A stretch of DNA of 64,000 nucleotides, from positions 17,827 to 81,826 of the forward strand of contig CAVDQG010000003.1 in NCBI GenBank assembly GCA_963611165.1, in the 5' to 3' direction. This document shows, in pieces, positions 2 through 24,766 of the stretch. The first letter of the stretch is position 1; every line of letters starts with the position of its first letter. The stretch is from Bacteroides uniformis (lineage in GTDB: Bacteria > Bacillota > Clostridia > Oscillospirales > Acutalibacteraceae). The notes under the pieces were generated by a model. The model worked only from the letters and a program-made list of their open reading frames with translations. It was not told the DNA's origin and ran no database searches. Both the position numbers and the translations under genes were made by a program.

Positions 2-133
2 AGATTTGACACTGACGATGTTGTTGTGGCAAGCGGCAGCTGTTCGGGTAACTGCTCGGATGTATGCGAAGGCGTCTGCGAAAGGGTTTGCGAGCCTAAG
101 TGCATGCCAAACTGCAATCCATACGTACTGTAA
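2..133 (+). CDS. 5'-truncated small Cys-rich precursor-like peptide, class A (...RFDTDDVVVASGSCSGNCSDVCEGVCERVCEPKCMPNCNPYVL*)
   Basis: My own frame-2 translation runs open from the window edge to TAA at 131-133. It shares the RFDT(D/E)DVVVAS motif with the next gene. It has seven Cys at exact i,i+4 spacing. Confidence 0.55.
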   Translation, partial: RFDTDDVVVASGSCSGNCSDVCEGVCERVCEPKCMPNCNPYVL

Positions 134-152
134 TGTTGAGGGGTGAAGGTAA

Positions 153-314
153 ATGAAAAAGTTAGTAAAACCCAATATGGAGATAGTCAGATTTGACACA
201 GAAGATGTTGTAGTGGCAAGTGACGGATGCTATGGCTATTGCAAATCTGTTTGTCCGTCAGAATGTCACTCTGTTTGTGATTTAAAGTGCAATTCAGTAA
301 CAACAGAAGGCTGA
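153..314 (+). CDS. 53-aa Cys-rich precursor-like peptide, class A (MKKLVKPNMEIVRFDTEDVVVASDGCYGYCKSVCPSECHSVCDLKCNSVTTEG)
   Basis: ATG at 153 follows a purine-rich SD (gaggggtgaagg); stop TGA at 312-314. It is below the ORF-track length cutoff. It is a paralogue of the truncated upstream peptide and has six Cys at i,i+4 spacing. Confidence 0.6.
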   Translation: MKKLVKPNMEIVRFDTEDVVVASDGCYGYCKSVCPSECHSVCDLKCNSVTTEG

Positions 315-427: not shown

Positions 428-574
428 ATGAAAAAGGTTTACAAAACACCCGTGGTCGATAAGGTTAATTTCGACTACAAGAATCAGGTAGTTGCATCAG
501 GATGCACAAGACAGTGGGGATATCAGGGCGATAATTGCCACGACCATTCCACAGTATACGACAACCTTTCTTGA
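428..574 (+). CDS. 48-aa precursor-like peptide, class B (MKKVYKTPVVDKVNFDYKNQVVASG|CTRQWGYQGDNCHDHSTVYDNLS)
   Basis: ATG at 428 with SD agtgagga 7 nt upstream; TGA at 572-574. The 25-aa N-terminus is conserved with the three following genes and the C-terminus is variable. Confidence 0.65.
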   Translation: MKKVYKTPVVDKVNFDYKNQVVASGCTRQWGYQGDNCHDHSTVYDNLS

Positions 575-591
575 TTTGGGGGTGTATCGAT

Positions 592-741
592 ATGAAAAAA
601 GTCTATGAAACACCTCTGGTAGAAAAGGTTGATTTTGATTACAAAAATCAGGTCGTAGCTTCGGGCGGTGGCTGTTATTACAGAAATATCGGAGACGAGT
701 CTTGTGTAAGCGGCGGCGAGTTTATTCTGCAGAACTCCTGA
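592..741 (+). CDS. 49-aa precursor-like peptide, class B (MKKVYETPLVEKVDFDYKNQVVASG|GGCYYRNIGDESCVSGGEFILQNS)
   Basis: This is the internal Met of track ORF 535..741. Start at 592 is chosen by homology to its paralogues and by the G-rich SD (ttggggg) upstream. Confidence 0.65.
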   Translation: MKKVYETPLVEKVDFDYKNQVVASGGGCYYRNIGDESCVSGGEFILQNS

Positions 742-784
742 TTTGTAAGCAAAAACAAAATTCGAAAGAAGTGAGGACAAACAT

Positions 785-943
785 ATGAAAAAAATCTATG
801 AAACACCTGCAGTTGAAAAAGTTAATTTTGACTACAAGAATCAGGTAGTTGCTTCGGGTACTTGCGGTACCGTTTATGGTTGGAGAACACCTACAACGGA
901 GACAACATGCCATGAACAGCATTATAGTGAGAATCAGGTTTGA
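785..943 (+). CDS. 52-aa precursor-like peptide, class B (MKKIYETPAVEKVNFDYKNQVVASG|TCGTVYGWRTPTTETTCHEQHYSENQV)
   Basis: ATG at 785 with SD agtgagga; TGA at 941-943. The leader is conserved and the core is variable with two Cys. Confidence 0.65.
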   Translation: MKKIYETPAVEKVNFDYKNQVVASGTCGTVYGWRTPTTETTCHEQHYSENQV

Positions 944-958
944 TTGGAGGAAGAAAAA

Positions 959-1120
959 ATGAGAAAGCTGTATACTACACCTTCAGTTGAGAAGATAGAG
1001 TTTGATTATAATAATCAGGTAGTTGCGTCAGGTTGTAGCTATGTTTATAACAATTACGACCCGGCTTCAGGAGGAAGCTGTGTTGTAGATCCAGTACACT
1101 CTCGAACATACAAAGTTTAA
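959..1120 (+). CDS. 53-aa precursor-like peptide, class B (MRKLYTTPSVEKIEFDYNNQVVASG|CSYVYNNYDPASGGSCVVDPVHSRTYKV)
   Basis: ATG at 959 with SD ttggaggaag; TAA at 1118-1120. The leader is conserved and the core is variable with two Cys. Confidence 0.65.
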   Translation: MRKLYTTPSVEKIEFDYNNQVVASGCSYVYNNYDPASGGSCVVDPVHSRTYKV

Positions 1121-1136
1121 GCAACGATAATTAAAA

Positions 1137-1166
1137 GGCAGAGGCCTGTTTGGCTCTGCCTTTTTT
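1137..1166 (+). terminator. Rho-independent terminator/attenuator after the peptide gene array
   Basis: Hairpin ggcagaggcc-tgtt-tggctctgcc followed by TTTTTT, located between the last peptide gene and the kinase-like gene. Confidence 0.6.
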
Positions 1167-1208: not shown

Positions 1209-2336
1209 ATGAAATATTTACTTCCGGGCGTAATTCTTGATTCAGAATTAAAATTGGAGGAATTTTCGGATTTTGAAGCCGAGAATCCCTCTTCTTTTGC
1301 TGTCCCAGAGATAAGCTTAAAGGTGACGGAAGAAGAGCCCACCCCCGAGGTGAAAAGAGCTTACGCTCACGCTCAGATAAACATAAGCGAAATCGAGGGC
1401 GGCTGGCTTTTTTCGGACACGACTGGCGGAGCTAAGCTTCTCGTTTCTGAGGACTACCGAATGCTCACCGCATGGGTGAGGGGCGAAAGAAACATGGAGG
1501 CGCTAAAGACCAATCTTCTTCGCACCGCACTCGAGTGCGCAAGCGTGGCAAACGGCATAGTCAGCTTTCACTCGGCTTGCGTTGAGGCGGACGGCTTTGC
1601 CGTGGCTTTCACGGGCAAGAGCGGAACGGGAAAATCCACCCGTGCAAACGCATGGATAGAGAATCTCGGCTACAGCTTTGTCAGCGGCGACAGACCCGCT
1701 ATTTTCAGCGAAAACGGCGTTCTTACCGTCAGCGGAGTTCCGTGGGACGGCAAGGAGAAGATTTTCAGAAATGTGCGTCTTCCCCTCAAGGCTATTTTGG
1801 ACGTTCACAGAAGCGACAACGAGTTTTTTGAATTAAGAGAGCTCACGCAAAAACAGAAATTCAGAGTGCTCATGCAGCAGGCATTCATTCCGATGTGGGA
1901 CACAAAGACCGCAAGCGGAGTGATAGGCATGCTCCATGTGCTTTCAAGAAAAGCACCGATGCTTCGCCTTTTCTGCGGCCCCGACGGGGAATCCGCAAAG
2001 AAGACGCACGATGTTTTATTTAATCATCCCGAACTAATAAAGGAGGCAAGACCCGAGATGAAGGTTAAGGAAGGATTCACTCTCCGCAATGTTATCGGAG
2101 AGAACATTTTGATGCCGACAGGCGACAACATAGGCAAATTTGACGGAACTGTTATTTTCAACGAAGTTTCTGCATTCGTATGGGAGAAGATGCAGACTCC
2201 TGTTTCAAGAGAGGATCTTCTCGGAGCGATTTTAGGTGAATTTGAGGTTGATAAGGAGACGGCAGAGAAGGATCTCGACGCTCTGCTCGAGAAGCTCTCA
2301 AGTCTCGGACTTATCGACGAAAACGCAACAGACTGA
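1209..2336 (+). CDS. HPr-kinase-like P-loop protein fused to a C-terminal PqqD/RRE-like peptide-binding domain (putative peptide kinase)
   Basis: 375-aa ORF. Its central part (FHSACVEADGFAVAFTGKSGTGKSTRANAW...FVSGDRP) resembles the HprK C-terminal/HprK-related kinase P-loop. The last ~90 aa (FTLRNVIGENILMP...FNEVSAFVWEKMQTPVSREDLLGAILGEFEVDKETAEKDLDALLEKLSSLGLID) match the PqqD-family pattern. Both calls rest on motif recognition only. Confidence 0.6.
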   Translation: MKYLLPGVILDSELKLEEFSDFEAENPSSFAVPEISLKVTEEEPTPEVKRAYAHAQINISEIEGGWLFSDTTGGAKLLVSEDYRMLTAWVRGERNMEALKTNLLRTALECASVANGIVSFHSACVEADGFAVAFTGKSGTGKSTRANAWIENLGYSFVSGDRPAIFSENGVLTVSGVPWDGKEKIFRNVRLPLKAILDVHRSDNEFFELRELTQKQKFRVLMQQAFIPMWDTKTASGVIGMLHVLSRKAPMLRLFCGPDGESAKKTHDVLFNHPELIKEARPEMKVKEGFTLRNVIGENILMPTGDNIGKFDGTVIFNEVSAFVWEKMQTPVSREDLLGAILGEFEVDKETAEKDLDALLEKLSSLGLIDENATD

Positions 2337-2355: not shown

Positions 2356-4104
2356 ATGCTTACATTACTTAAAGCAAGTTATAAGGAAGATAAGCGTGGC
2401 TTTATCGAGATTTTCATACTGAACATAATCTCGTCTTTAATGGGCGGCATAAGCATAGTCGTGCTCTTGCCGATGCTCGAGCTTTTGGAGGATGTTCCCT
2501 CTTCGCTTGAGGGCAGTGTGGTGGAGGCGGCTGTCAGCACCATGTCACCCTTGATGAGAGTTATTGTTTTGGCTGGCGGCTATTTGTTTTTATTGACGGT
2601 TAAGGCTCTCCTTAGCCGTCAAATGTCGCTAAGGCAAAATGCTTACCTTTGCCGCTACACGCAAAGGCAGAGACAAACTCTCTATGAGCTTATGGAGAAA
2701 TCAAGCTGGCAGTACCTCGCAAAGCAGAAGAGAACGGATCTCATCAATCTTTTCACCTCGCTTTGCGGTCAGGTGACGAGCGGAATTTCCTCTTCAATCG
2801 GTATGCTCTCGAATATCGTCATAGCTATAGTTCAGCTTATAATTGCACTTTGTATGAGCGTGCCCATCACGCTGTTTGTTTGCGTGGCGGGTGCTGTTTT
2901 GATGGCGGTTTTCTGGCCGCTAAAAAAGAAAAGCAAGGCTTTCGGCAAGGAAATGATTGATGTCAGCCGAAATTTCTACTCGGAGCTTCTGAATCAGCTC
3001 GGCAGCGTCAAGGAGATAAGAGCCTATGATGTCGAGAGTGAACATGAGGAGAGGTTCACCAAGATAAACGAGAAGTTTACCACCATGCAGACCGAGTATG
3101 CCAAAGTGAGCTCGCTTCCGGGACTTGTCTATAACATTGCGGCGGCACTTGTTATCGCACTTCTCTTTGTGTTTTCCACAATGGGCATTCACATTGAGAC
3201 GGCAAGACTTTTGGTTCTCGTTCTCGTTTTCTCAAGATTGTGGCCGATTTTCTCAGGCTTTCAGGGAACGGTGCAGAGCATTCAGACGAATCTCCCGGCG
3301 CTCGAAGACCTCGAAAAAGCCATGAGGGAAATGCGTGAGGCAAGAGAAGAACCCGACGACGGCAGAACTCTCGACTTCAAGGAGAATGTCACATTTGACG
3401 GCGTTCATTTCTCGTATTTCGATGACGGCAAGGATGTTCTCGGCAACATGAGCTTCGAGATAAAATTCGGCGAAATAGTCGCTCTTTGCGGCAGAAGCGG
3501 AGCAGGCAAGAGCACCGTGGCTAATCTTCTCATGGGATTTTTGAATCCCACATCGGGAAGCATAAGCGTGGATGGAAATGTTCTCACGGGCAAGGACTTG
3601 CACGCTTGGCGAAGAGTTATCGGCTATGTTCCGCAGGATCCGCTTGTATTAAACGCATCCGTGCGAGAGAATCTCTCACGTTTCCACCCGAACGTCACCG
3701 AGGAAGAGATGATAGACGCACTCAAGCGTGCTCAGGCTTGGGGATTTGTCGAAAAGCTTAATGACGGACTTGATACGCTTCTCGGCGATCAGGGAGTCAG
3801 ACTTTCGGGCGGCGAAAGACAGAGAATAATTCTCGCAAGGGTTCTTCTGGGAAAACCGAGGTTCATAATTCTTGACGAGGCGACCAGCGCACTTGATTAT
3901 GACAGCGAAATTTCCATAAGAAATGTGCTGTACGAGCTAAAAGGTGAGGTTAGTGTATTGATTATTGCCCACCGACTTGCTACAATAAGGATTGCGGACA
4001 AAGCGCTTGTTCTTGAGAACGGTTCAATCAGCGAGACGGGCACGATAGCCGAGCTTATCAAAAAGCCGGGCGGCTATCTCAACTGTATGGCTGATCTCGG
4101 ATGA
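2356..4104 (+). CDS. ABC exporter, fused permease/ATPase, with no N-terminal C39 peptidase domain
   Basis: 582 aa. It has N-terminal TM helices, Walker A GRSGAGKST, signature LSGGERQR, Walker B IILDEATSALD and H-loop IAHRL. Confidence 0.85.
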   Translation: MLTLLKASYKEDKRGFIEIFILNIISSLMGGISIVVLLPMLELLEDVPSSLEGSVVEAAVSTMSPLMRVIVLAGGYLFLLTVKALLSRQMSLRQNAYLCRYTQRQRQTLYELMEKSSWQYLAKQKRTDLINLFTSLCGQVTSGISSSIGMLSNIVIAIVQLIIALCMSVPITLFVCVAGAVLMAVFWPLKKKSKAFGKEMIDVSRNFYSELLNQLGSVKEIRAYDVESEHEERFTKINEKFTTMQTEYAKVSSLPGLVYNIAAALVIALLFVFSTMGIHIETARLLVLVLVFSRLWPIFSGFQGTVQSIQTNLPALEDLEKAMREMREAREEPDDGRTLDFKENVTFDGVHFSYFDDGKDVLGNMSFEIKFGEIVALCGRSGAGKSTVANLLMGFLNPTSGSISVDGNVLTGKDLHAWRRVIGYVPQDPLVLNASVRENLSRFHPNVTEEEMIDALKRAQAWGFVEKLNDGLDTLLGDQGVRLSGGERQRIILARVLLGKPRFIILDEATSALDYDSEISIRNVLYELKGEVSVLIIAHRLATIRIADKALVLENGSISETGTIAELIKKPGGYLNCMADLG

Positions 4105-4156: not shown

Positions 4157-6130
4157 ATGGCAAAAACTAATGAAAGACGCCGAATTTTGCACTGGCAGAT
4201 GGTCAGTGCGATTCTGGTGGCTTACGATCTGGTTGCGGTGGTTTTTTCTTACTTTATCGCACTTTTGGTACGATTTGACTGCAGGTTCTCGCTCATACCG
4301 AGAGATTATCTCGAAGGCTACTATAAAAGTATAATCGTCTATGCGATTATCGTGGCTGTGGTGTTCCAGTGCTTCAGGCTCTATCAATCGATTTGGCGGT
4401 TTGCGAGCTTCGTGGAGCTGTGCCGACTTCTGCTGGCGACGGTGATAACCTCGGTTATCTATGTTTTGTTCGAGACGATATGCATTCAGAGGATGCCTGT
4501 TTCGTACTTCATTTTCGGAATCATTGTTCAGCTTACACTCACCGTTGGCGTGAGATTTTCTTACCGCTTCATTCTTCTTCTTCGTGAGAGAAATTATTTC
4601 GGCACGGACAAGACTAAGCCCGAGGAATCGAAAGTTATGCTTATCGGTGCGGGACAGGCGGGTCAGGCAATTATCCGTGACGTAAGAAGAAGCACTTCAC
4701 TCAATGACAAAATCGTCTGCATCATTGACGACAACTCAAACAAATGGAGCCGCTTTATCGACGGTATTCCCGTTGTCGGCGGCAGAGAGAGTATAGTCGA
4801 GAACTGCAAGAAATTCGGCATTGATAAAATCTACTATGCTATTCCGAGTGCGAACATGAAGACCGAGAAGGAAATTCTCGAGATATGCAGTGAAACGGGA
4901 TGCAAGATGAAGAAGCTTCCCGGTATGTTCCAGCTTATCAGCGATCAGGTCACCATTGCCGACATGAAGGACGTTCAGATTGAAGACCTTCTCGGCAGAG
5001 AACCGATTAAGGTTGATATGAACGAGATTTTCTCTTATATTCGTGACAAGGTTATACTCGTCACGGGCGGCGGCGGATCTATCGGCTCTGAACTTTGCAG
5101 ACAGATTGCCGCACATGAGCCGAAAATGCTCATCATATTCGATATTTACGAGAACAATGCCTATTCAATTCAGCTTGAACTCAAGAGAAAATATCCTAAC
5201 TTAAAGCTTGAGACGATAATCGGCTCGGTTCGTGACGGAAAAAAGCTTCTTGACCTCATGGAGAAATATCATCCGCAGATTATCTATCATGCGGCTGCTC
5301 ACAAGCATGTTCCGCTTATGGAGGATTCTCCGTGCGAGTCAATCAAGAATAACGTAATGGGCACATACAACACTGCCCTTTGTGCGGCTTTGACGGGTTG
5401 CGAGAGATTTGTCCTTATAAGCACCGACAAGGCGGTAAATCCCACCAACATCATGGGCGCAAGCAAGCGTCTTTGCGAAATGGTTGTTCAGTCCTTTGAC
5501 GCACTTGTCAAGACCGGAAAAGCCGACAAACTTCTTCCTACGTTCTTAAGCTGGGCACACACCGAGGATAACGAAGGTCTTGCCGAGAGGCTAAAGAGCG
5601 CAAAGGTAGAGTATGTTGCCGTTAGATTTGGTAATGTTCTTGGCAGTAACGGCTCCGTCATTCCGCTTTTCAAAAGGCAGATTGAGCTTGGCGGCCCCGT
5701 AACGGTCACTCATCCGAACATCATCCGCTACTTTATGACTATCCCCGAAGCGGTTTCACTCGTTCTTCAGGCGGGAACATATGCAAACGGCGGAGAAATT
5801 TTTGTTCTCGATATGGGCGAGCCCGTCAAGATAGATACCCTTGCGAGAAACCTCATCAGACTTTCGGGTCACGAGCCTGACGGCGATATTAAAATCGTTT
5901 ACACGGGACTGCGACCGGGCGAAAAGCTTTTCGAGGAGAAGCTTATGGCTGAAGAGGGCTTGAAGAAAACCAAGAACAAACTTATTCACATCGGTTGTCC
6001 GATTCCTTTTGATACCGATGAGTTTGTCGTACAGTTGGATTCTTTAAGCCGTGCGGCTTACGATAATGCCGAGAATATAAGAGAGCTTGTCGAGGAAATT
6101 GTCACGACCTACAAGCCCGAGAATATTTAG
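4157..6130 (+). CDS. Membrane-anchored polysaccharide biosynthesis protein, CapD/PglF/WbpM-like NDP-sugar 4,6-dehydratase
   Basis: 657 aa. It has N-terminal TM helices, two Rossmann motifs (IGAGQAGQ, VTGGGGSIGSEL) and SDR-type motifs (STDKAV...PTNIMGASKR). Confidence 0.8.
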   Translation: MAKTNERRRILHWQMVSAILVAYDLVAVVFSYFIALLVRFDCRFSLIPRDYLEGYYKSIIVYAIIVAVVFQCFRLYQSIWRFASFVELCRLLLATVITSVIYVLFETICIQRMPVSYFIFGIIVQLTLTVGVRFSYRFILLLRERNYFGTDKTKPEESKVMLIGAGQAGQAIIRDVRRSTSLNDKIVCIIDDNSNKWSRFIDGIPVVGGRESIVENCKKFGIDKIYYAIPSANMKTEKEILEICSETGCKMKKLPGMFQLISDQVTIADMKDVQIEDLLGREPIKVDMNEIFSYIRDKVILVTGGGGSIGSELCRQIAAHEPKMLIIFDIYENNAYSIQLELKRKYPNLKLETIIGSVRDGKKLLDLMEKYHPQIIYHAAAHKHVPLMEDSPCESIKNNVMGTYNTALCAALTGCERFVLISTDKAVNPTNIMGASKRLCEMVVQSFDALVKTGKADKLLPTFLSWAHTEDNEGLAERLKSAKVEYVAVRFGNVLGSNGSVIPLFKRQIELGGPVTVTHPNIIRYFMTIPEAVSLVLQAGTYANGGEIFVLDMGEPVKIDTLARNLIRLSGHEPDGDIKIVYTGLRPGEKLFEEKLMAEEGLKKTKNKLIHIGCPIPFDTDEFVVQLDSLSRAAYDNAENIRELVEEIVTTYKPENI

Positions 6131-6154
6131 TGGCAAAAAGAGAAAGAGATTGAA

Positions 6155-6196
6155 AAAGTGCAGAGGGTACACGCTTAGGTGACTTCTGCACTTATT
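6155..6196 (+). terminator. Hairpin terminator after the capD-like gene
   Basis: agtgcaga...tctgcact stem followed by tatttt. Confidence 0.4.
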
Positions 6197-6227
6197 TTGA
6201 AATTTGAGAATTTGTGAGAATGAGAAA

Positions 6228-7988
6228 ATGAAAAAAACAGCTGATATAATTCAAAATATATACCGATTTTTGGTTGTCGGATGCTTTCTGATTATCATAA
6301 CCTTTTTGTGTGCATATAATGCGGCGTCCACCGCAGTTCTTATAAACTGGGAGCACACGGCTTATATTGCCGACTCCGTCAAGCTTCACTTGGCGTTCAT
6401 CGTTCTTTCGCTTATTTTGGTGATTTTACTGAAGAGAAGCGGAGCTTACCGTTTTGTCTGCCAAAAGCTTGAGGACGACAAAATATTCGGAAGATGCAAG
6501 TTTTTTCTTATAATCACAATCTTGGCTCTTTCCTGTCTGTGGGTGCTCAGCACGCAGTTTAAACCGGGCGTTGACGAATATGCCGTTCAGCAGGCTGTGG
6601 AGGAGGTTTTGGAGGGGAACTACGAATCTTTTGCTCCGCTTGCCTACATGGATGAATATCCGAACAACTGGGGATTTTTCCTTTTTTCCTATATTGTTGC
6701 CCGTATTTTCGGAAAAATGAACTATATCGTTATCCAGCTTATAATAGCCGTAACGATAGCATTAGCCTTTAAGGCACTCTCAGAGATAGCAGAGCTTTTT
6801 GAGATTGGCAGAGCGGGTCAATTACTCGTGCTTTTGGTCGGCGTGCTGTTTATCCCGTTCACTTTCTACTCCATGATGGTTTACGGAAATTTGCCGGGTG
6901 TAGCCTTTGCGCTCATTGCCGTGAAGTATGAGATTAAGTATCTTAAAGACGGCGGTAAAATTTATCATGCCGTTATCAGCGGAGTTTCAATAGCCGTAGG
7001 AGTTGCGTTCAAGAGCAACATGCAGATTTATTTTCTTGCCATGATTTTCACGGCGGTCATTCATGTGTTCAAATCTTGGAAAAAGGCACTTGCCTTAGTT
7101 TTGATTTTGATTGCCGCATATGCCGTTCAGTCGTTCGGAATAGCGCTAATCATAAGGAGCATGACGGGCTGTGCGCTTGATAAGCCGATAACTTCGCTTG
7201 CGTGGGTTGCCATGGGACTTCAGGACGGCGATCTTGCTCCCGGATGGTGGAATAATTACAGCGTAAAGACCTATTTTGAGTGCGGCGGCGACGCCGTCAA
7301 GCATTCGGCTGTGGTTAAATCGAGCATAAGCGATTCGCTTTCTAATTTTATTTCAAATCCCGATTATGCCGTAGAATTTTTCACGAAGAAAATTCTTTCC
7401 ACATGGGCAAACCCAACCTTCCAGTGCTATGCTACCGTCAGGAACGGCACCTATTTGGCTGTTCCCAAGTGGATGCTTGAGATGCTTTCCTATTCATCGC
7501 AGAAAAGCATGACAGAATATCTTGATGTGATAGCCTTTCTTGTTTATTTCGGCTCGCTTCTCTATGTGCTTACAGAGGACTTCAAGCGAACAGACAAGCT
7601 GATTTTGCCGATGACTTTTGTCGGCGGATTCGTTTTCTATCTCGTGTGGGAAGCAAAGGCAAGATACGGAATGATGTTCTTTATTGTTCTCATTCCCTGT
7701 GCGGTGAAGGGTTTCAGCCGAACAGCTACGCTCATAACAGAAAAAATCAAGAAGATTAAGCAAAACAGACAGACAAAGAGCACCGAAAGCGGCGAAAGAA
7801 AAATCAATCGCAAGCTTGCCGCAAGATTCTGTGTGGTGGCGGTTTCACTTGCCGTGTTTGTCGCTTTGTATGCCGTTAAATTTAATTTCGTTCTCAATCA
7901 GGATACGGGGGAATATCTCAGCTATGTCGAAAACTCTCCGGACGAGGAGGAAATAAAGTATCTCGGTCAGGCTGATGACAGTAAATAA
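6228..7988 (+). CDS. Large polytopic membrane protein, possibly a GT-C/PMT_2-like glycosyltransferase
   Basis: The ORF is listed as 6204..7988, but 6204 is a TTG, so I prefer ATG 6228 (MKKTADI). It has many predicted TM segments and acidic loop motifs (GVDEY, MDEYPNNWG). The function is a guess. Confidence 0.35.
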   Translation: MKKTADIIQNIYRFLVVGCFLIIITFLCAYNAASTAVLINWEHTAYIADSVKLHLAFIVLSLILVILLKRSGAYRFVCQKLEDDKIFGRCKFFLIITILALSCLWVLSTQFKPGVDEYAVQQAVEEVLEGNYESFAPLAYMDEYPNNWGFFLFSYIVARIFGKMNYIVIQLIIAVTIALAFKALSEIAELFEIGRAGQLLVLLVGVLFIPFTFYSMMVYGNLPGVAFALIAVKYEIKYLKDGGKIYHAVISGVSIAVGVAFKSNMQIYFLAMIFTAVIHVFKSWKKALALVLILIAAYAVQSFGIALIIRSMTGCALDKPITSLAWVAMGLQDGDLAPGWWNNYSVKTYFECGGDAVKHSAVVKSSISDSLSNFISNPDYAVEFFTKKILSTWANPTFQCYATVRNGTYLAVPKWMLEMLSYSSQKSMTEYLDVIAFLVYFGSLLYVLTEDFKRTDKLILPMTFVGGFVFYLVWEAKARYGMMFFIVLIPCAVKGFSRTATLITEKIKKIKQNRQTKSTESGERKINRKLAARFCVVAVSLAVFVALYAVKFNFVLNQDTGEYLSYVENSPDEEEIKYLGQADDSK

Positions 7989-8001
7989 CCTATATACAGT
8001 A

Positions 8002-8035
8002 AAAACCGCAGTCGGATAAAAACGACTGCGGTTTT
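8002..8035 (+). terminator. Rho-independent terminator
   Basis: aaaaccgcagtcg-gataaaaa-cgactgcggtttt. Confidence 0.75.
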
Positions 8036-8184
8036 GTGCATTCTCATAAAAATACTTGTGCACGGGGGAAAAACAAAATTCTTGATTTCATAAGAATAAA
8101 TCGTCAATTTAACACAAGATAGAGTAGTTTTTAACTGTTTAAATTAAATGACAAATAATTTACTTTTTTGTAACATTACTTTTA

Positions 8185-8213
8185 TTGCCTTGAAAGGGAT
8201 AATTTGTTATACT
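8185..8213 (+). promoter_or_regulatory. Sigma-A-type promoter (TTGCCT, 17 nt spacer, TATACT)
   Basis: Read directly from the sequence: -35 at 8185-8190 and -10 at 8208-8213. Confidence 0.5.
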
Positions 8214-8219
8214 AATTAT

Positions 8220-8384
8220 AGATGTTGTGTTACTGTATACATTTTGTCGATTGGGATACATACATAGTGTGATTGCTTCTAAGCCAAGCAATCCGCTTTG
8301 GCGAATGAAATGTATGTATGAAATGTATGTATGTGTCAGAAAATAGGATGACCAAAAATTGAAAGAAAGAAAGGAGAGCTTTGT
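8220..8384 (+). promoter_or_regulatory. Structured 5' leader upstream of the DUF1538/P-II-like genes (candidate cis-regulatory RNA)
   Basis: atacatacat (8256-8265) is complementary to either copy of a tandem 13-nt repeat aaatgtatgtatg (8308-8320 and 8321-8333). It encloses a perfect hairpin, gattgctt/aagcaatc (8271-8293). Confidence 0.3.
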
Positions 8385-9905
8385 TTGCAGTTTTTCAGCC
8401 AGCTCAAAGAGAAAACGGGCGAATCCATGGCGGCGGTTTTGCCGATAACCGTCATTGTTTTCGTGCTGTCCGTCACACTTGCTCCCCTTGACCCCGGCAC
8501 GCTGATACTGTTCCTTTTCGGTGCGGTTCTGCTTGTTGCGGGAATGGGCTTTTTTACTATGGGGGTCGATATGGCAATGACGCCGCTCGGTGAGGGCGTC
8601 GGTTCGGTTCTCAGTAAAAAGAAAAAATTCATTATTCCGGCAGTGGCATTTTTTCTGCTCGGAATGCTTGCCACGGTTGCGGAGCCTGATTTACAGGTGC
8701 TCGCAAATCAGGTTTCGGCAATCAACACTCAGGTGCTCATCTGGACGGTTGCGATAGGCGTGGGATTTTTCCTTGTTATCGCAACAATCAGAATAAGAAA
8801 GGGGATTCCGCTTCGTCGGCTTTTGCTCATTTTCTATTTCATCGTGTTCGCAATGGCGTTCATAGCACCGAACAACTTCGTTCCCGTTTCATTTGATTCG
8901 GGCGGAGTTACCACGGGTCCGATAACGGTTCCGTTCATTATGGCTTTGGGTCTCGGTATAGCCTCGAGCCGCAGTGACAAAAACAGCGCAAGCGACAGCT
9001 TCGGTCTTGTTTCGCTTTGCTCGATAGGCCCGATTCTCTCCGTGCTTATTTTAAGCATAGTTTATAAGCCGCAGACGGTTGATGTCAGCCTTGCCGAGGT
9101 ACCCGAGGTATCCACAAGCGCACAGGTGGCGCATTACTTTATCCGTGCGTTTCCGAGTTATTTTGAGGAGGTTGCGATAGCAATTTTACCGCTTGTGGCG
9201 GTATTTGTGATTTTTCAGCTCATCACGAAAAATTATTCGGGAAATGAGCTTATCAAAATCGCAATGGGATTTATCTATACCTACATCGGACTTGTCATGT
9301 TCCTTTGCGGAGTTAACGTCGGCTTCATGCCCGCCGGTCAGACTATCGGTGCGGCTATCGCTTCGAGCTCGCAGAGATGGCTTCTTATTCCTATCGGTAT
9401 GCTCATCGGCTTCTTCATCGTAAAAGCCGAGCCGGCGGTTGCCGTTTTGCAGAAGCAGGTTGAGGAGGTTTCCAACGGTGCTATTTCCGCCCGTGCGATG
9501 GGTGTTGCGCTTTCTGTCGGCGTCTGTGTTTCTGTCGGACTTGCCATGGTGCGTATGCTTACGGGCATGAATATTTTCTTCCTTCTCATTCCCGGTTATG
9601 CGATTGCACTTGGCTTAAGCTTCTTTGTGCCGAACATCTTCACCGGTATCGCATTCGACTCCGGCGGAGTTGCCAGCGGCCCGATGACGGCTACATTCCT
9701 TTTGCCGTTCGCTCAGGGCGCATGCCAGGCAATAGGCGGAAACATGATGACTGACGCATTCGGAATTGTCGCAATGATTGCCATGACGCCGCTTGTCACC
9801 ATTCAGATTATGGGACTTTCAAGCATCGTCCGTCACAATATTCAGATAAGAAAGCTTCATTTCCACATGGAAAAGGTCGAGGATACAGTCCTCTTCTACG
9901 ATTAA
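8385..9905 (+). CDS. DUF1538-family integral membrane protein (internally duplicated)
   Basis: 506 aa. TTG start lies 6-7 nt after SD aaggagag. The protein is polytopic and has an internal repeat: FDSGGVTTGPITVPF versus FDSGGVASGPMTATF. Confidence 0.65.
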   Translation: MQFFSQLKEKTGESMAAVLPITVIVFVLSVTLAPLDPGTLILFLFGAVLLVAGMGFFTMGVDMAMTPLGEGVGSVLSKKKKFIIPAVAFFLLGMLATVAEPDLQVLANQVSAINTQVLIWTVAIGVGFFLVIATIRIRKGIPLRRLLLIFYFIVFAMAFIAPNNFVPVSFDSGGVTTGPITVPFIMALGLGIASSRSDKNSASDSFGLVSLCSIGPILSVLILSIVYKPQTVDVSLAEVPEVSTSAQVAHYFIRAFPSYFEEVAIAILPLVAVFVIFQLITKNYSGNELIKIAMGFIYTYIGLVMFLCGVNVGFMPAGQTIGAAIASSSQRWLLIPIGMLIGFFIVKAEPAVAVLQKQVEEVSNGAISARAMGVALSVGVCVSVGLAMVRMLTGMNIFFLLIPGYAIALGLSFFVPNIFTGIAFDSGGVASGPMTATFLLPFAQGACQAIGGNMMTDAFGIVAMIAMTPLVTIQIMGLSSIVRHNIQIRKLHFHMEKVEDTVLFYD

Positions 9906-9917
9906 CGGAGGCATAAT

Positions 9918-10583
9918 ATGGAAAAAATCAAAGCGGTTGTCTCCATCGTGGAGCGTGGACAGGGTGCTGTTCTGCAAAGGCACTACGGCAAGCAGGGAAT
10001 ATATTTCCACACGCAGTGCCTTGGAAGAGGAACGGCAACCAGTGAAATCATGGATATTCTGGGACTTGACTCCAAGGACAAGGATGTTGTAATCAGCCTT
10101 GCTACGAGCAGTCTTGTTATGAACCTTTTCAAGGTGATTAATTCTGACCTCAGGGGCAGTATGGGCGTAAAGGGCGTTGCGTGCAGTGTGCCCATCTCGG
10201 GAATTAACAATATATTGGCAAATTTGCTTGCCTATCAGTCCGAAAAGCATAAAAAGGAATCCGGAGGAGAAGAAGTGGAACGCACTAAAAATACAATGAT
10301 AATCGTTCTTTGCAACCGAGGAACTACGGGTGATGTTATGGCAACCGCAAAGGAAAACGGCGCAAGGGGCGGAACAATAATCAAATCGAGAATATCGGGC
10401 TTCGAGGAGCTCGAACAGGCATACAGCTTGAAGGTCGATGACAACAAGGATATTCTCGCCATAATGGTTTCCACCGATAAGCGTGCCGCCATCATGGAGG
10501 CAATCAATAAGGAGCACGGACTTCAGAGCAAGGCTCAGTCTTTCCTTTTCTGCCTGCCTATCGAGGAAATGACAAAACTTTAA
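9918..10583 (+). CDS. Tandem P-II-like (GlnB-fold) regulatory protein
   Basis: 221 aa with SD ggagg upstream. It has two P-II-like halves (KIKAVVSIVERGQG... and MIIVLCNRGTTGDVM...). DUF1538 proteins commonly pair with P-II-like proteins. Confidence 0.55.
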   Translation: MEKIKAVVSIVERGQGAVLQRHYGKQGIYFHTQCLGRGTATSEIMDILGLDSKDKDVVISLATSSLVMNLFKVINSDLRGSMGVKGVACSVPISGINNILANLLAYQSEKHKKESGGEEVERTKNTMIIVLCNRGTTGDVMATAKENGARGGTIIKSRISGFEELEQAYSLKVDDNKDILAIMVSTDKRAAIMEAINKEHGLQSKAQSFLFCLPIEEMTKL

Positions 10584-10603
10584 ATTTAAAAATTGATGTT
10601 TTG

Positions 10604-10632
10604 GGGAGTCTGTTTAAACAGGCTCCTTTTGT
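10604..10632 (+). terminator. Rho-independent terminator
   Basis: ggagtctg-tttaaa-caggctcc followed by tttt. Confidence 0.55.
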
Positions 10633-10751
10633 TCACAAAAAGTTTTTGCTTTTTTCTTGTTACATAAATATACATGTGTTATATTTATGCTACAAAGTGT
10701 GTTAAATATTTTAGACTATTGCATCTAAGGAAATCGGGGAATCTGAATAAA

Positions 10752-12308
10752 ATGAGCGCAAATACCTTGGAGAGCAGAAAGAACGTCCAAAACGGAGTTC
10801 GAAGGCTGATTTTCTGCGGCATTTCCATTTTGCTGCAGCTCGGCTTTTTTGCTCTTCTCTTAACAAAACTTTATAACTGGGCGTCGATAATCGACATCGT
10901 GGTGAGAATGGCGGCTTTTGCTCTGGCACTGGTGCTGTACGGACAAAACAAGACTACTCTCAATATGACTACGCCGTGGATAATTCTGATATTGTCCTTT
11001 CCGATTTTGGGAATAGGACTTACACTGCTTATCGGTCTTGACGGCGGTACATACAAAATGAAAAAGCGTTATGCCGAGATAGATTATCGGCTTTTGCCTA
11101 TGCTTGGGAAAAACGATGAGGAGCTTGAAAGGCTCACGGATAAAAACCCCCGTGCAGGCTCGATTGCAAGATATATTGCGAAAAACTCGAAGTATCCCGT
11201 CTATGATGGTTCGAGTGTGAGATATTTTGACGAGGCGATAAACGGTCTTGAAAGCCAGCTTGAGGATCTTAGGAAGGCAGAGAGATTTATCTTTATGGAA
11301 TATCATGCCATTGAGGACGCTAAGGCTTGGTCGAGAATAGAGGCGGTTCTGGCGGAAAGAGCGGCGGCAGGCGTTGAGGTTCGTGTTTTCTATGACGACA
11401 TGGGCTCAATCGGATTTATAAACACAACATTTATCGAGAAATTAAAGGCAAAGGGAATAAGATGCAGAGTTTTTAACCCCTTTGCTCCTATGGTGAATGT
11501 GTTTCTTAACAACCGTGACCATCGAAAGATAACCGTTATAGACGGAAAAATCGGTTACACGGGAGGATATAATTTAGCGGACGAATATTTTAACTATACT
11601 CACCCGTACGGAATGTGGAAAGATACGGGAATAAGAATTGAGGGCGATGCGGTCGCAAACCTTACGGCGGCTTTCCTCGAGATGTGGAACGCCGCAAAGG
11701 ACGGCAACCGTGATACGGACGAGAGATTCGAGGAATTTCTCAGAACAGAAAGGGCAGAAAATCCCGAGGGGTTTGTCCAGCCATATGCCGACATTCCTAT
11801 CGACCATGAGAAAGTGGGCGAGGAGGTGTATATCAGTCTTATCAATAAGGCTGAAAGATACTGCTACTTTATCACGCCGTATCTTATTATCACGGACGAA
11901 ATGAAACATGCGCTCAACTTAGCCGCCAAGCGTGGAGTTGACGTGAGAATAATCACACCGGGAATACCCGACAAAAAGCTTATTTACAGCGTAACGAGAT
12001 CGTTTTACAGCGAGCTTGTGCCAAGCGGTGTGAGAATTTATGAGTGGACTCCGGGATTTTGTCACGCTAAGATGTGCGTGGTTGATGATGAAATGGCTAC
12101 ATGCGGAACGATAAATCTTGATTACCGCAGTCTTTATCATCACTTTGAGAACGGCTGCTTTATGGCTCACTGTGAAGCGGTTCTCAAAATTAAAGAGGAT
12201 ATGCTTAAAACGATGGGGGAATCAAGAGAGGTGACGGACGACTACGCAAAGACAGACAAAAAGAGGATAGGACAGCTTATCATGCGGCTGTTTGCAGGAC
12301 TATTGTAA
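10752..12308 (+). CDS. cls: Cardiolipin synthase
   Basis: It has two PLD HKD motifs (HRKITVIDG and HAKMCVVDD) and N-terminal TM helices. Start is taken at ATG 10752 (MSANTLE) rather than the track start 10674. Confidence 0.85.
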   Translation: MSANTLESRKNVQNGVRRLIFCGISILLQLGFFALLLTKLYNWASIIDIVVRMAAFALALVLYGQNKTTLNMTTPWIILILSFPILGIGLTLLIGLDGGTYKMKKRYAEIDYRLLPMLGKNDEELERLTDKNPRAGSIARYIAKNSKYPVYDGSSVRYFDEAINGLESQLEDLRKAERFIFMEYHAIEDAKAWSRIEAVLAERAAAGVEVRVFYDDMGSIGFINTTFIEKLKAKGIRCRVFNPFAPMVNVFLNNRDHRKITVIDGKIGYTGGYNLADEYFNYTHPYGMWKDTGIRIEGDAVANLTAAFLEMWNAAKDGNRDTDERFEEFLRTERAENPEGFVQPYADIPIDHEKVGEEVYISLINKAERYCYFITPYLIITDEMKHALNLAAKRGVDVRIITPGIPDKKLIYSVTRSFYSELVPSGVRIYEWTPGFCHAKMCVVDDEMATCGTINLDYRSLYHHFENGCFMAHCEAVLKIKEDMLKTMGESREVTDDYAKTDKKRIGQLIMRLFAGLL

Positions 12309-12337
12309 GAACTGTTTCGGTTTATGGGGGTAACTGA

Positions 12338-12583
12338 ATGAAAAATCCGTTTTACGGAATGCTTGGAATGTTTGCGGTTTTTAAGGTGTTTGGAACATTC
12401 CTCGTGATTTATTTGATTATGTTTTTGGCGGTTATTGCATTGGCTTATATTTTCTGTGCGGTAACTCAAAGGTCGGTTGACGGAAAAACGGTCAGAATAT
12501 GCGCTTTGACAGCGATTATTCCCGCAGTGATTTTCACGGCGGTTATAGCGTTTGTTTTATCGAAAATCCCTATGCTTATTTGA
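12338..12583 (+). CDS. Small hydrophobic membrane protein (81 aa)
   Basis: ORF with two to three TM-like segments and SD ggggg upstream. I recognise no family. Confidence 0.4.
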   Translation: MKNPFYGMLGMFAVFKVFGTFLVIYLIMFLAVIALAYIFCAVTQRSVDGKTVRICALTAIIPAVIFTAVIAFVLSKIPMLI

Positions 12584-12613
12584 TTAGGAAATGTATATTT
12601 GCGGAGGTTAATT

Positions 12614-13153: not shown

Positions 13154-13171
13154 TCAAAAATAATCAAACTA

Positions 13172-13206
13172 AAAGGAAAGCTTTTCGAAAAAGGCTTTCC
13201 TTTTTG
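13172..13206 (+). terminator. Rho-independent terminator
   Basis: aaaggaaagc...gctttccttttt. Confidence 0.7.
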
Positions 13207-13417
13207 TGTTTAGACGCCAAGTTTTAAACAATTGCCTTCAAGATGTTGAAAACTTGATGCGGCTTCGCTTTGATATATAGAAAAATCCGCACAATTCCAC
13301 TGTTTTTTGTCGGTTAATATAACCGATTTTTCTTGACATAACGGGTAAGTGTTATTAAAATAAAGGGTGCATTAGCAGAAAATTTTGCAGATTTTTTTCA
13401 AACGGAGATATTTTATC

Positions 13418-24635: not shown

Positions 24636-24643
24636 ATATTTCA

Positions 24644-24759: not shown

Positions 24760-24766
24760 ACTAAAG

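What the first reader, a model, noticed from the sequence alone, without database searches (positions are those of the whole stretch)
428..1120. Four paralogous class B precursors: invariant 25-aa leader and hypervariable two-Cys cores, two of which end in Ser
The leader M(K/R)K(V/I/L)Y-x-TP-x-V(E/D)K(V/I)-x-FDY(K/N)NQVVASG is nearly identical in all four genes, while the following 23-28 residues are unrelated. The one shared feature is a Cys within 1-3 residues of ASG and a second Cys 9-14 residues later (gaps of 10, 9, 14 and 14). The cores are also rich in Tyr/Trp/Ser/Thr. Two cores end in ...NLS and ...QNS. In paeninodin-type systems the HprK-like kinase phosphorylates the C-terminal Ser, which makes these termini notable. 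A conserved leader with diversified cores is the classic signature of combinatorial RiPP precursors. The shared FD-x4-VVAS block with class A suggests that one recognition domain serves two structurally different core families.
Basis: partly seen in the sequence, partly recalled or inferred. Interest (0 to 1): 0.7.

Follow-up and report, generated by a model that had tools for sequence, protein, structure and literature searches.

The report
Precursor peptides of kinase/radical-SAM RiPP cassette
The four small genes are real precursor peptides of a widespread, uncharacterised peptide-modification cassette of gut and rumen Clostridia, which combines the toolkit of the newly described phosphorylated "LPP" peptides with a radical SAM enzyme and sits inside capsule gene clusters.

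Summary
Window 428-1120 holds four tandem small genes with a near-identical 25-residue N-terminus and divergent two-Cys C-termini.

The RiPP-precursor reading is supported. Relatives 98% identical in DNA show the cluster begins upstream of the window. Across 77 loci one cassette recurs:
- a signal-peptidase-like leader peptidase
- a radical SAM/SPASM enzyme (nearest relatives SkfB and AlbA)
- 1-9 precursors
- the HprK-like kinase fused to a PqqD recognition domain (window 1209-2336)
- an MsbA-like exporter (window 2356-4104)

Two interpretations fail:
- C-terminal Ser is not conserved (9% of 205 homologues). The invariant Ser sits at the VVA(x)S junction.
- The Cys-rich "class A" genes have their own PqqD, kinase-like protein and radical SAM enzyme. 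That module is absent, together with class A, from sister strains. Only the peptidase and exporter look shared.

The cores are not unrelated. They share a Gly/Ser linker, the first Cys, an aromatic residue four positions later, about 13 residues to the second Cys, and a 10-11-residue tail.

The closest known system is the LPP family (Nat Commun 2026). This cassette differs by adding a radical SAM enzyme, fusing kinase to recognition domain and lacking the NTP-transferase. I rate it a new variant of a known kind. The chemistry is inferred, not shown.

The parts
2..133 (+). Class A precursor, 5'-truncated by the window edge (...RFDTDDVVVASGSCSGNCSDVCEGVCERVCEPKCMPNCNPYVL). Its core is a CxxxC repeat.
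   Evidence: The full gene is at L001 108-275 and L004 8737-8904. Weak hit to TIGR04117, the Cys-Xaa-Xaa-Xaa repeat radical SAM target.
153..314 (+). Class A precursor 2 (MKKLVKPNMEIVRFDTEDVVVASDGCYGYCKSVCPSECHSVCDLKCNSVTTEG). Its leader has LxxP where class B has YxxP.
428..574 (+). Class B precursor B1
   Evidence: Orthologues in L001, L004, L008, L011 and L012.
592..741 (+). Class B precursor B2. The ATG at 592 lies inside the longer mechanical ORF 535-741.
785..943 (+). Class B precursor B3
959..1120 (+). Class B precursor B4. The ATG at 959 lies inside the mechanical ORF 944-1120.
1136..1166 (+). GC-rich hairpin followed by a U run, between the last precursor and the enzyme genes. Likely an intrinsic terminator or attenuator that sets the precursor:enzyme ratio.
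   Evidence: -23 kcal/mol, z = -4.2, 0 of 200 shuffles as stable; conserved in 6 relatives, with 4 of 13 pairs kept through changes on both sides. Missed by the pattern scan because of a bulge.
1209..2336 (+). 375-aa fusion protein: an N-terminal beta-rich part plus an HprK/PEPCK-like P-loop kinase domain (about residues 1-280), then a PqqD-type RiPP recognition element (about 284-372).
   Evidence: Pfam PqqD 5e-13. AF2 model pLDDT 90.4. Foldseek hits PEPCK and HprK/P, and TbiB1 at TM 0.81. H121, GKSGTGKST and SGDR align with the His, P-loop and ADDR of HprK/P. These residues are invariant in 20 homologues. 1993 representatives reach E<=1e-10.
2356..4104 (+). 582-aa MsbA/HepA-like ABC exporter with no peptidase domain
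   Evidence: Adjacent to the fusion gene in 65 of 83 cassettes.

Best explanation
The four ORFs are substrate genes of a conserved five-part RiPP cassette. Its first two genes lie just upstream of the window.

Proposed pathway:
1. The leader's invariant Y-x-x-P-x-V segment docks as a strand on the PqqD/RRE domain at the C-terminus of the 375-aa fusion protein. (Inferred from homology with lasso B1 and LppB RREs.)
2. The fused HprK-like P-loop domain uses ATP to phosphorylate the bound precursor. The most likely site is the only universally conserved Ser, in VVA(x)S-G at the leader/core junction, not the C-terminal Ser. (Inferred by analogy with LppK, which phosphorylates core Ser3.)
3. The 382-aa radical SAM/SPASM enzyme has no RRE of its own. 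It is recruited through the same RRE and modifies the core at its two conserved Cys, most likely as two thioether (sactionine- or ranthionine-type) cross-links. (Inferred from SkfB/AlbA relatedness and the two-Cys scaffold.)
4. The soluble Ser/His/Asp archaeal-type signal-peptidase homologue removes the leader. It cuts either after F-D-Y (the position aligned with the proven F-E-T cleavage site of LppA) or after V-A-S or A-x-S (the classical -3/-1 rule).
5. The MsbA-like ABC protein exports the product.

The class A Cys-repeat genes are served by a second, inserted module (HprK-like 246 aa, PqqD 87 aa, radical SAM 457 aa). They probably share only the peptidase and exporter.

Shown here: the genes, their conservation, the cassette architecture, the module assignment from presence/absence, and the selection pattern. 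Inferred: every chemical step.

Rough probabilities: genuine RiPP precursors of this cassette 0.9; RRE binding through YxxP 0.8; leader removal by the SpI-like peptidase 0.7; Cys thioethers 0.45; Ser phosphorylation 0.4.
For: Cluster architecture:
- Full cluster seen in the 98.4% identical, colinear contig L004.
- Of 83 fusion genes in 77 loci from other species, these lie within 6 kb: a radical SAM homologue in 74, leader-bearing precursors in 76 (169 precursors), an ABC exporter in 65 and the peptidase in 55. Many contigs are cut.

Leader:
- YxxP in 203 of 205. The Y-to-F distance is always 10. A Ser follows VVA within 0-2 residues in 205 of 205.
- YxxP-type motifs are the recognition sequences of lasso/PqqD-type RREs (PMC12710340; PMC13381572).
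- The RRE domain is 40% identical (1e-23) to a discrete Clostridial RRE that sits beside an SpI peptidase, and 29% identical (7e-7) to LppB.

Peptidase:
- 29% identical to LppS (9e-6).
- Ser43 and His83 are invariant and Asp/Glu104 is conserved in 57 of 57. These align with the catalytic S29, H68 and D93 of LppS.
- LppS is experimentally an RRE-dependent leader peptidase (PMC13381572).

Radical SAM enzyme:
- Best NCBIfam hits are SkfB (1e-20) and AlbA (5e-20). The matches start at SkfB residue 69 and AlbA residue 105, so there is no RRE part.
- Best solved structure is SkfB, 6EFN.
- CX3CX2C plus the SPASM cysteines are conserved in 90 sequences.
- Loci with two radical SAM paralogues have two precursor types, each directly downstream of one paralogue.

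Kinase domain:
- Catalytic motifs are invariant.
- Fused and split kinase/RRE forms both exist.

Module assignment:
- Rests on natural presence/absence of the class A module.
Against: - No product has been observed. The type of cross-link and the existence and site of phosphorylation are untested.
- The radical SAM enzyme and the peptidase are not in the window itself. They are inferred from contigs 98-100% identical over the shared part.
- Similarity of the radical SAM enzyme to SkfB/AlbA is far below family cut-offs (73 bits against 300) and lies mostly in the generic radical SAM core.
- Similarity of the kinase domain to HprK/P is weak by sequence (E 0.007-0.1), and Foldseek TM scores are low for the whole chain.
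- The conserved Ser is not in register with Ser3 of LppA in the alignment.
- LppK itself could not be compared because its sequence is not held.
- The conserved Ser could equally be the -1 residue of a classical signal-peptidase site.
Confidence: 0.7

Rival explanations
1. Paeninodin-like logic. The HprK-like kinase phosphorylates the C-terminal Ser of the cores that end in Ser, and the peptides are otherwise lasso-like or linear.
For: B1 and B2 end in Ser, and their orthologues in close strains keep it. HprK-like kinases of paeninodin clusters do phosphorylate a C-terminal Ser (as reviewed in PMC7533575).
Against: - Only 18 of 205 homologues end in Ser; Asn is commonest at 24%.
- B3, B4 and the fifth gene do not end in Ser, yet they share the same leader and the same single kinase-RRE protein.
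- A B1-like orthologue ends ...GNEA.
- No lasso cyclase or B2 protease is in the cluster.
Confidence: 0.08
2. Thioether peptide only. The radical SAM enzyme makes sactipeptide- or ranthipeptide-like cross-links. The HprK-like domain is a non-phosphorylating ATPase or scaffold that merely carries the RRE.
For: The radical SAM enzyme lacks an RRE and is always adjacent. HprK-like, PqqD and radical SAM trios recur as split genes and exist as NCBIfam systems of unknown function (ScmC/ScmD/ScmE-F hits).
Against: The P-loop, the His and the Asp-Arg that align with the catalytic residues of HprK/P are invariant in 20 diverse homologues. A pure scaffold would not need them. In the related LPP system the kinase is active and its action promotes leader cleavage (PMC13381572).
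Confidence: 0.2
3. The two Cys form a disulfide (or bind a metal). The radical SAM enzyme modifies something else, such as the aromatic residue four positions after the first Cys (a C-C or C-S link to Trp/Tyr) or alpha-carbons (epimerisation).
For: An aromatic residue at first Cys +4 in 53%, Asn at +6 in 30% and Gly at +8 in 29%. SKF, the product of the nearest solved relative SkfB, has a disulfide spanning 14 residues in addition to one thioether (from memory). SPASM enzymes perform many chemistries (the family list).
Against: The aromatic residue is present in only about half of the cores, whereas two Cys are present in 83%. No thiol-disulfide oxidoreductase is in the cassette. The producers are strict anaerobes of the gut.
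Confidence: 0.2
4. Spurious ORFs, or unmodified class II bacteriocins whose N-terminus is an ordinary secretion leader.
For: No Pfam or NCBIfam family matches the peptides. All database homologues are unnamed.
Against: There is strong purifying selection on leaders. 169 leader-bearing ORFs are found beside 76 of 83 fusion genes. There is no double-glycine motif and no C39 peptidase domain in the exporter. The leader is not hydrophobic like a Sec signal.
Confidence: 0.02

Closest known systems
LPP (linear polyphosphorylated peptide) biosynthetic clusters of Bacilli: LppA/K/B/S/D/N (Popov et al., Nat Commun 2026, PMC13381572)
   Same: - Archaeal-type SpI-like leader peptidase: 29% identity, same Ser/His/Asp.
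- PqqD-type RRE.
- HprK-like kinase.
- MsbA-like exporter.
- Leader MKK..YxxPxV...F-(E/D)-(T/Y), alignable with LppA.
- Several precursors with a conserved N-terminus and variable C-terminus.
- Embedded in capsule loci.
   Different: - A radical SAM/SPASM enzyme is an obligate cassette member (74 of 83).
- No NTP-transferase.
- Kinase and RRE are fused into one protein.
- Cores are short (23-30 aa) two-Cys scaffolds, not long Gly/Asn/Pro-rich tails.
- The leader is 3 residues shorter between P and F.
- The conserved Ser is at +7, not +3, from the aligned cleavage site.
- Hosts are Clostridia. That paper studied only its SSN cluster 1 and lists Clostridial SpI+RRE pairs with precursors 'ND'.
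Sactipeptide systems (SkfB/SKF, AlbA/subtilosin A)
   Same: The radical SAM enzyme's nearest named families and nearest solved structure. Cys-containing cores. RRE-dependent recognition.
   Different: - The RRE is supplied in trans by a kinase fusion, not as the N-terminal domain of the synthase.
- The two Cys are 9-17 residues apart, not clustered in an N-terminal half facing acceptors.
- The leader protease is SpI-like.
- Scores are far below family cut-offs.
Paeninodin-type phosphorylated lasso peptides
   Same: HprK-like kinase, PqqD-type RRE, a [Y/W]xxP leader motif and an ABC exporter.
   Different: No lasso cyclase and no B2 protease. C-terminal Ser is not conserved. No Thr at -2. A radical SAM enzyme is present.
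NCBIfam/TIGRFAM 'SynChlorMet cassette' (ScmC HprK-like, ScmD PqqD-like, ScmE/F radical SAM) and the 'HPr-rel-A system'
   Same: The same trio of HprK-like protein, PqqD-family chaperone and radical SAM/SPASM enzyme. Weak hits to all of them.
   Different: All hits are far below cut-off. Those systems are bioinformatic definitions without known products. No SpI-like peptidase is part of their definition (from memory).

Membership tests
LPP family (PMC13381572) | Archaeal-type SpI-like leader peptidase with a Ser/His/Asp triad | tested here: met
   L004 4192-4677 against LppS: 29% identity, E 9e-6. S43, H83 and D/E104 are conserved in 57 of 57. The gene lies upstream of the window and is seen in 98% identical contigs.
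LPP family (PMC13381572) | Discrete RRE (LppB) that binds a YxxP leader | tested here: inconclusive
   An RRE is present and homologous (7e-7 to LppB), and YxxP is present. But the RRE is fused to the kinase rather than discrete. Binding was not tested.
LPP family (PMC13381572) | HprK-like kinase that (poly)phosphorylates a core Ser | not testable with these tools
   The kinase-like fold and motifs are present. The LppK sequence is not held, and activity needs an experiment.
LPP family (PMC13381572) | NTP-transferase (LppN) among the core genes | tested here: not met
   No such gene lies between cpsB and capD in L004. Cassettes in other loci are contiguous, with no room for one.
LPP family (PMC13381572) | Linear product: no cyclising or cross-linking enzyme | tested here: not met
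   A radical SAM/SPASM enzyme accompanies 74 of 83 fusion genes.
LPP family (PMC13381572) | MsbA-like exporter and location in capsule loci | tested here: met
   A CpsB or BY-kinase gene abuts the cassette on the same strand in 40 of 41 loci that contain one.
Sactipeptides | Radical SAM/SPASM (or Twitch) sactisynthase | tested here: inconclusive
   Best hits are SkfB and AlbA, but at 73 and 71 bits against cut-offs of 300 and 850. The SPASM Cys pattern is conserved.
Sactipeptides | Cys sulfur to alpha-carbon thioether in the product | not testable with these tools
   Needs MS/NMR of the product.
Paeninodin-type lasso peptides | Lasso cyclase (Asn-synthetase-like) and B2 cysteine protease | tested here: not met
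   Absent from the complete cluster in L004 and from the related loci.
Paeninodin-type lasso peptides | Conserved C-terminal Ser as phospho-acceptor | tested here: not met
   9% of 205 homologues end in Ser.
PqqD/RRE domain (PF05402) | Pfam match above gathering score and a winged-helix RRE fold | tested here: met
   49.6 bits against 23.4. Foldseek TbiB1 5V1V, TM 0.81 on the target.
HprK/P-type P-loop kinases | P-loop GxSGxGKS with an upstream His and a downstream Asp-Arg, in a PEPCK-like fold | tested here: met
   Motif alignment to 1JB1. Invariant in 20 homologues. Foldseek hits PEPCK and HprK/P with probability 1.00 but low TM. The Pfam Hpr_kinase_C score is below cut-off (16.8 against 33.3).

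The most novel reading that the evidence does not exclude
These peptides are the substrates of an undescribed RiPP class in which one RRE-kinase fusion protein coordinates two orthogonal modifications on a short two-Cys scaffold: Ser (poly)phosphorylation and radical SAM cross-linking. The cassette is translationally coupled to the capsule regulators Wzz, BY-kinase and CpsB. On this reading the products act on, or are attached to, the capsule or biofilm matrix of gut Clostridia rather than acting as bacteriocins. A second, homologous pathway (class A) co-exists in the same operon and is kept apart by a Y-versus-L switch in the xxP leader motif.
Probability: 0.3. Interest if true: 0.85.

Novelty: new variant of a known kind. 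Interest (0 to 1): 0.62.

Why it matters
- The cassette is common. In a 50%-clustered library the fusion protein has 1993 relatives at E<=1e-10. It occurs in many gut and rumen Clostridia, yet has no named family, no annotated precursors and no known product.
- It links two fields that have been studied apart: phosphorylated leader-guided peptides (paeninodin, LPP) and radical SAM thioether peptides.
- It offers natural kinase-RRE fusions that could show how an RRE hands one substrate to three enzymes.
- The strict operonic coupling to capsule regulators, also noted for LPPs in Bacilli, makes the unknown biological role of this whole group testable in gut anaerobes.
- The co-resident class A and class B pathways are a ready-made case for studying leader discrimination.

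Tried and rejected
- Pfam and NCBIfam scans of the four peptides gave no family.
- A PDB sequence search with the leader profile gave only chance matches to the Tk-subtilisin propeptide, E 0.5.
- A PDB sequence search with the peptidase gave nothing meaningful. Homology to LppS had to be shown with the sequence taken from the paper's supplement.
- The pattern scan for terminators missed the hairpin at 1136-1166 because of a bulge. It was recovered by folding.
- Average-linkage clustering of radical SAM paralogues against the Cys count of the adjacent core was too coarse. One small clade of 5 goes with 3-4-Cys cores; the rest are unresolved.
- Lasso-peptide reading rejected: no cyclase or B2 protease.
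- Double-glycine bacteriocin reading rejected: no GG motif, no C39 domain.
- Literature searches joining HprK-like kinase, radical SAM and RiPP found no description of this cassette.
- Haft & Basu 2011 is not held.
- The meaning of the precomputed domain PF27840, seen on many homologues, could not be looked up. It is absent from the local Pfam copy.
Full report
**1. What is in the window**

Positions 428-1120 hold four + strand ORFs (B1 428-574, B2 592-741, B3 785-943, B4 959-1120). Each has a purine-rich ribosome-binding site. Each encodes M(K/R)K-x-Y-x-T-P-x-V-(D/E)-K-(V/I)-x-F-D-Y-(K/N)-N-Q-V-V-A-S-G followed by 23-28 divergent residues with exactly two Cys.

Upstream, 2-133 and 153-314 encode two 'class A' peptides with CxxxC-repeat cores. 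The first is cut by the window edge. Downstream come:
- a stable hairpin with a U run (1136-1166; -23 kcal/mol, z -4.2; conserved with compensatory changes in six relatives)
- a 375-aa protein (1209-2336)
- an ABC exporter without a peptidase domain (2356-4104)

Polysaccharide and housekeeping genes follow.

**2. Is it more than chance?**

Yes. Between the four paralogous leaders, synonymous sites are nearly saturated (pS 0.52-0.84) while pN is 0.07-0.18. The peptide sequence is therefore maintained by selection.

Among close strains the ratios are as follows (counts are small):

| Region | pN/pS |
|---|---|
| Leader | 0-0.16 |
| Core | 0.47-1.06 |
| Adjacent 375-aa gene | 0-0.18 |

Core differences include Gly/Ser insertions or deletions between ASG and the first Cys. 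All ORFs are intact in every relative. A strain with 98% identical flanks (L005) carries two quite different cores where B3 and B4 lie in the window. That is cassette turnover.

**3. The window starts in the middle of the cluster**

Contigs carrying the identical 375-aa protein end among the precursor genes. The contig L004 is 98.4% identical and colinear from window position 1. Together with L005 and L006 it shows the full cluster:

| L004 position | Product |
|---|---|
| 4192-4677 | 161-aa signal-peptidase-I-like protein |
| 4681-5829 | 382-aa radical SAM/SPASM enzyme |
| 5822-6562 | 246-aa second HprK-like P-loop protein |
| 6860-7123 | 87-aa PqqD |
| 7123-8496 | 457-aa radical SAM enzyme (best hits TIGR04463 'vs C-rich', Clo7bot, CefB, PapB) |
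| 8540-8707 | fifth class B gene |
| 8737-9085 | two class A genes |
| 9199-9912 | B1-B4 |
| 10001-11128 | the fusion protein |
| 11148-12896 | the exporter |

The 3' end of the fifth class B gene is visible in L001, 148 nt upstream of the window start.

**4. Which enzyme goes with which peptide**

Strains L007-L009 (96% identical) and the related species L012 and L013 lack the 246-aa protein, the 87-aa PqqD, the 457-aa radical SAM enzyme and all class A genes. They keep the peptidase, the 382-aa radical SAM enzyme, four to six class B genes, the fusion protein and the exporter.

So class B belongs with peptidase + 382-aa radical SAM + fusion + exporter. Class A belongs with an inserted module that has its own RRE, its own kinase-like protein (29% identical to the fusion's kinase domain, 7e-17) and its own radical SAM enzyme.

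This contradicts 'one recognition domain serves two core families'. There is, however, only one peptidase and one exporter. The block shared by both leader classes, F-D-(T/Y)-x-x-x-V-V-A-S, may be what those shared components read (inference).

Class A leaders have L-x-x-P where class B has Y-x-x-P. A recent study shows that Y versus W at this position lets two co-resident RREs discriminate their leaders (PMC13381572). A Y/L switch here is a testable analogue.

**5. The cassette is widespread and conserved**

- The fusion protein has more than 1266 homologues in the 5.8-billion-protein collection.
- In a 50%-clustered library it has 81, 1993 and 7298 representatives at E<=1e-30, 1e-10 and 1e-3. 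Both fused and split (kinase-only, RRE-only) forms occur.
- A scan of species-representative genomes returned 77 loci. By their record titles most are MAGs of Clostridia from gut and rumen; a few carry other labels.
- Of 83 full-length fusion genes, these lie within 6 kb: a homologue of the 382-aa radical SAM enzyme in 74, leader-bearing small ORFs in 76 (169 in all, 1-9 per locus), the exporter in 65 and the peptidase in 55. Many contigs are truncated.
- Loci with two radical SAM paralogues have two precursor types, each directly after one paralogue, and a single fusion protein, peptidase and exporter (partial support). This fits leader-directed shared components and a core-specific radical SAM enzyme.

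**6. The precursor family**

A profile search found 75 further unnamed homologues. Pooled with the loci, 205 unique sequences carry the junction motif.

Leader features:
- YxxP in 203 of 205; the other two are truncated.
- The Y-to-F distance is always 10.
- F-x-(Y/F) is universal.
- A Ser follows VVA within 0-2 residues in 205 of 205, and Gly follows that Ser in 149.

Core features:
- 171 of 205 (83%) have exactly two Cys.
- The linker before the first Cys is Gly/Ser-rich, median 4 residues.
- W/Y/F sits at first Cys +4 in 53%, Asn at +6 in 30% and Gly at +8 in 29%.
- The Cys-Cys gap has median 13 (IQR 11-14).
- The tail after the second Cys has median 11 (IQR 10-11).
- The C-terminal residue is Asn 24%, Val 11%, Ser 9%.

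So the cores are hypervariable in sequence but share a scaffold. C-terminal Ser is not a family feature.

**7. The proteins**

*Fusion protein*
- Pfam PqqD at 299-369.
- AF2 model with pLDDT 90.4.
- Foldseek finds PEP carboxykinase and HprK/P for the N-terminal 280 residues, and TbiB1 in complex with its leader (5V1V, TM 0.81 on the target) for the C-terminal domain.
- By sequence, the RRE part matches TfuB1 and TbiB1, and the P-loop part matches HprK/P.
- His121, G136-KSGTGKST-144 and S159-GDR-162 align with the His, P-loop and A-D-D-R of HprK/P. They are invariant in 20 diverse homologues, as is P-W-D-G-K-E.

*382-aa radical SAM enzyme*
- CX3CX2C (C58, C62, C65), and C281...G294-x4-C299...C334-x2-C337...C346...C364, are conserved in 90 sequences. 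This is a SPASM pattern.
- The nearest families are SkfB and AlbA, aligned from their residues 69 and 105 onward. The N-terminal RRE of those enzymes has no counterpart here.
- The nearest solved structure is SkfB, 6EFN, 4e-20.

*Peptidase*
- G-x-S43-M-x-P, H83-R84, G97-D98 and D/E104 are conserved in 57 of 57.
- No N-terminal hydrophobic segment is evident by reading.

**8. Comparison with the literature**

Searches combining HprK-like kinase, radical SAM and RiPP found nothing that describes this cassette.

The closest system is the LPP family published in May 2026 (PMC13381572). In Bacilli it comprises:
- an archaeal-type SpI-like peptidase, LppS (catalytic S29, H68, D93)
- a discrete RRE, LppB
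- an HprK-like kinase, LppK
- an NTP-transferase, LppN
- an MsbA-like exporter, LppD

The cluster is often embedded in capsule loci. Precursors carry YxxPxVLxHQxIxFET|xxS. LppK polyphosphorylates core Ser3. LppS cleaves after Thr-1, needs the RRE, and works poorly on unphosphorylated precursor.

Using sequences from that paper's supplement:
- Our peptidase is 29% identical to LppS (9e-6), with Ser, His and Asp aligned.
- Our RRE domain matches LppB (7e-7).
- Our RRE domain is 40% identical (1e-23) to a discrete RRE next to an SpI peptidase in Dehalobacter. That pair belongs to an SSN cluster the paper lists but did not study, with precursors 'ND'.
- LppA aligns with both leader classes: MKK..Y-x-x-P-x-V, a 3-residue deletion, then (V/I)-x-F-(E/D)-(T/Y). 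Class A IVRFDT closely resembles LppA PVRFET.

That paper does not mention radical SAM enzymes.

**9. Capsule context**

In L004 the peptidase gene follows wzz, a BY-kinase gene and cpsB within 20 nt, and capD follows the exporter. Among the loci that contain any homologue of these capsule genes, the capsule gene abuts the cassette on the same strand in 40 of 41.

**10. Mechanism**

Inferred unless stated otherwise.
1. The Y-x-x-P-x-V segment binds the fused RRE.
2. The kinase domain phosphorylates the bound precursor, most plausibly at the invariant junction Ser.
3. The radical SAM enzyme is recruited through the same RRE and modifies the two-Cys scaffold, most plausibly as thioethers.
4. The SpI-like peptidase removes the leader. 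It cuts either after F-D-Y (aligned with the proven LppA site) or after V-A-S or A-x-S (the classical -3/-1 rule, which every one of the 205 sequences satisfies).
5. The ABC protein exports the product.

The conserved hairpin after the last precursor gene would give excess precursor transcript over enzyme transcript.

The rivals cannot be excluded without mass spectrometry. They are: no phosphorylation; a disulfide plus another radical SAM chemistry; C-terminal Ser phosphorylation.

**11. Verdict**

- The RiPP-precursor interpretation is supported.
- The C-terminal-Ser idea and the single-recognition-domain idea are not supported.
- The system is a new variant of a known kind: the LPP toolkit plus a radical SAM enzyme, with a kinase-RRE fusion. 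It is widespread and uncharacterised.

Limits: the radical SAM enzyme and peptidase lie outside the window and are inferred from near-identical contigs, and no chemistry has been observed.

Noticed in passing
window 2-314; L004 5822-9085: Two class A precursors have CxxxC-repeat cores and an LxxP (not YxxP) leader. In sister contigs they come with a separate module (HprK-like 246 aa, PqqD 87 aa, radical SAM 457 aa related to TIGR04463, CefB and PapB). This module is present in some strains and absent in others, and it is nested between class B genes.
   Followed up: partly
window 1136-1166: A conserved GC-rich hairpin plus U run lies between the last precursor gene and the enzyme genes. Four of 13 pairs show compensatory changes across six relatives. 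Likely a terminator or attenuator.
   Followed up: yes
L004 1930-4677 and 40 other loci (for example L015, L024-L026, L033, L040-L042): The RiPP cassette directly abuts, on the same strand and often overlapping, the capsule regulator genes (Wzz, BY-kinase, CpsB phosphatase). This holds in 40 of 41 loci that contain them. It suggests co-transcription with capsule genes, as reported for LPP clusters in Bacilli.
   Followed up: partly
L005 3101-3451, against window 785-1120: A strain with 98% identical flanking DNA has two quite different class B cores (DTCRKYYGLSGQPGSQCQEPSWYWDGNNA and VSPSPSGCKVIYNEFDHGACTDVQSKTYNI) where the window has B3 and B4. This is a precursor cassette swap.
   Followed up: partly
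L015, L016, L019, L024, L033, L082: Some cassettes carry two radical SAM paralogues. Each is followed by its own precursor type; the second type has longer cores with 3-4 Cys. They share one fusion protein, one peptidase and one exporter.
   Followed up: partly
L027-L029, L035, L037, L054, L070, L071 (about 11000-13500): Immediately downstream of the main cassette in several Acutalibacteraceae MAGs lies a second trio: a short PqqD, a radical SAM enzyme and a separate HprK-like protein. No precursor was detected for it with the class B leader model.
   Followed up: no
family-wide (205 precursors): The C-terminal residue is Asn in 24%, and the tail after the second Cys is almost constant at 10-11 residues. 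Neither feature is explained.
   Followed up: no
window 24520-24760: Two tandem 5S rRNA genes (81 and 72 bits). No 16S or 23S match was reported anywhere in the window.
   Followed up: no
window 41500-41717: A T-box leader (94 bits, just above the gathering score).
   Followed up: no
window 6204-7988: A 594-aa ORF in the polysaccharide region has no Pfam family and only a weak LA_3751/LA_3752-like glycosyltransferase hit (E 0.0015).
   Followed up: no
L010-L013 record titles: Contigs 77-94% identical to the window over the fusion protein (80-93% in DNA) are labelled Lachnospiraceae, Bacteroidaceae and Prevotella in their MAG records. These labels cannot all be right. The organism of the window was not determined.
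   Followed up: no
table: Many homologues of the fusion protein carry a precomputed Pfam domain PF27840 that is not in the local Pfam copy. It may be a recent family for the kinase-like part. Its name could not be checked.
   Followed up: no
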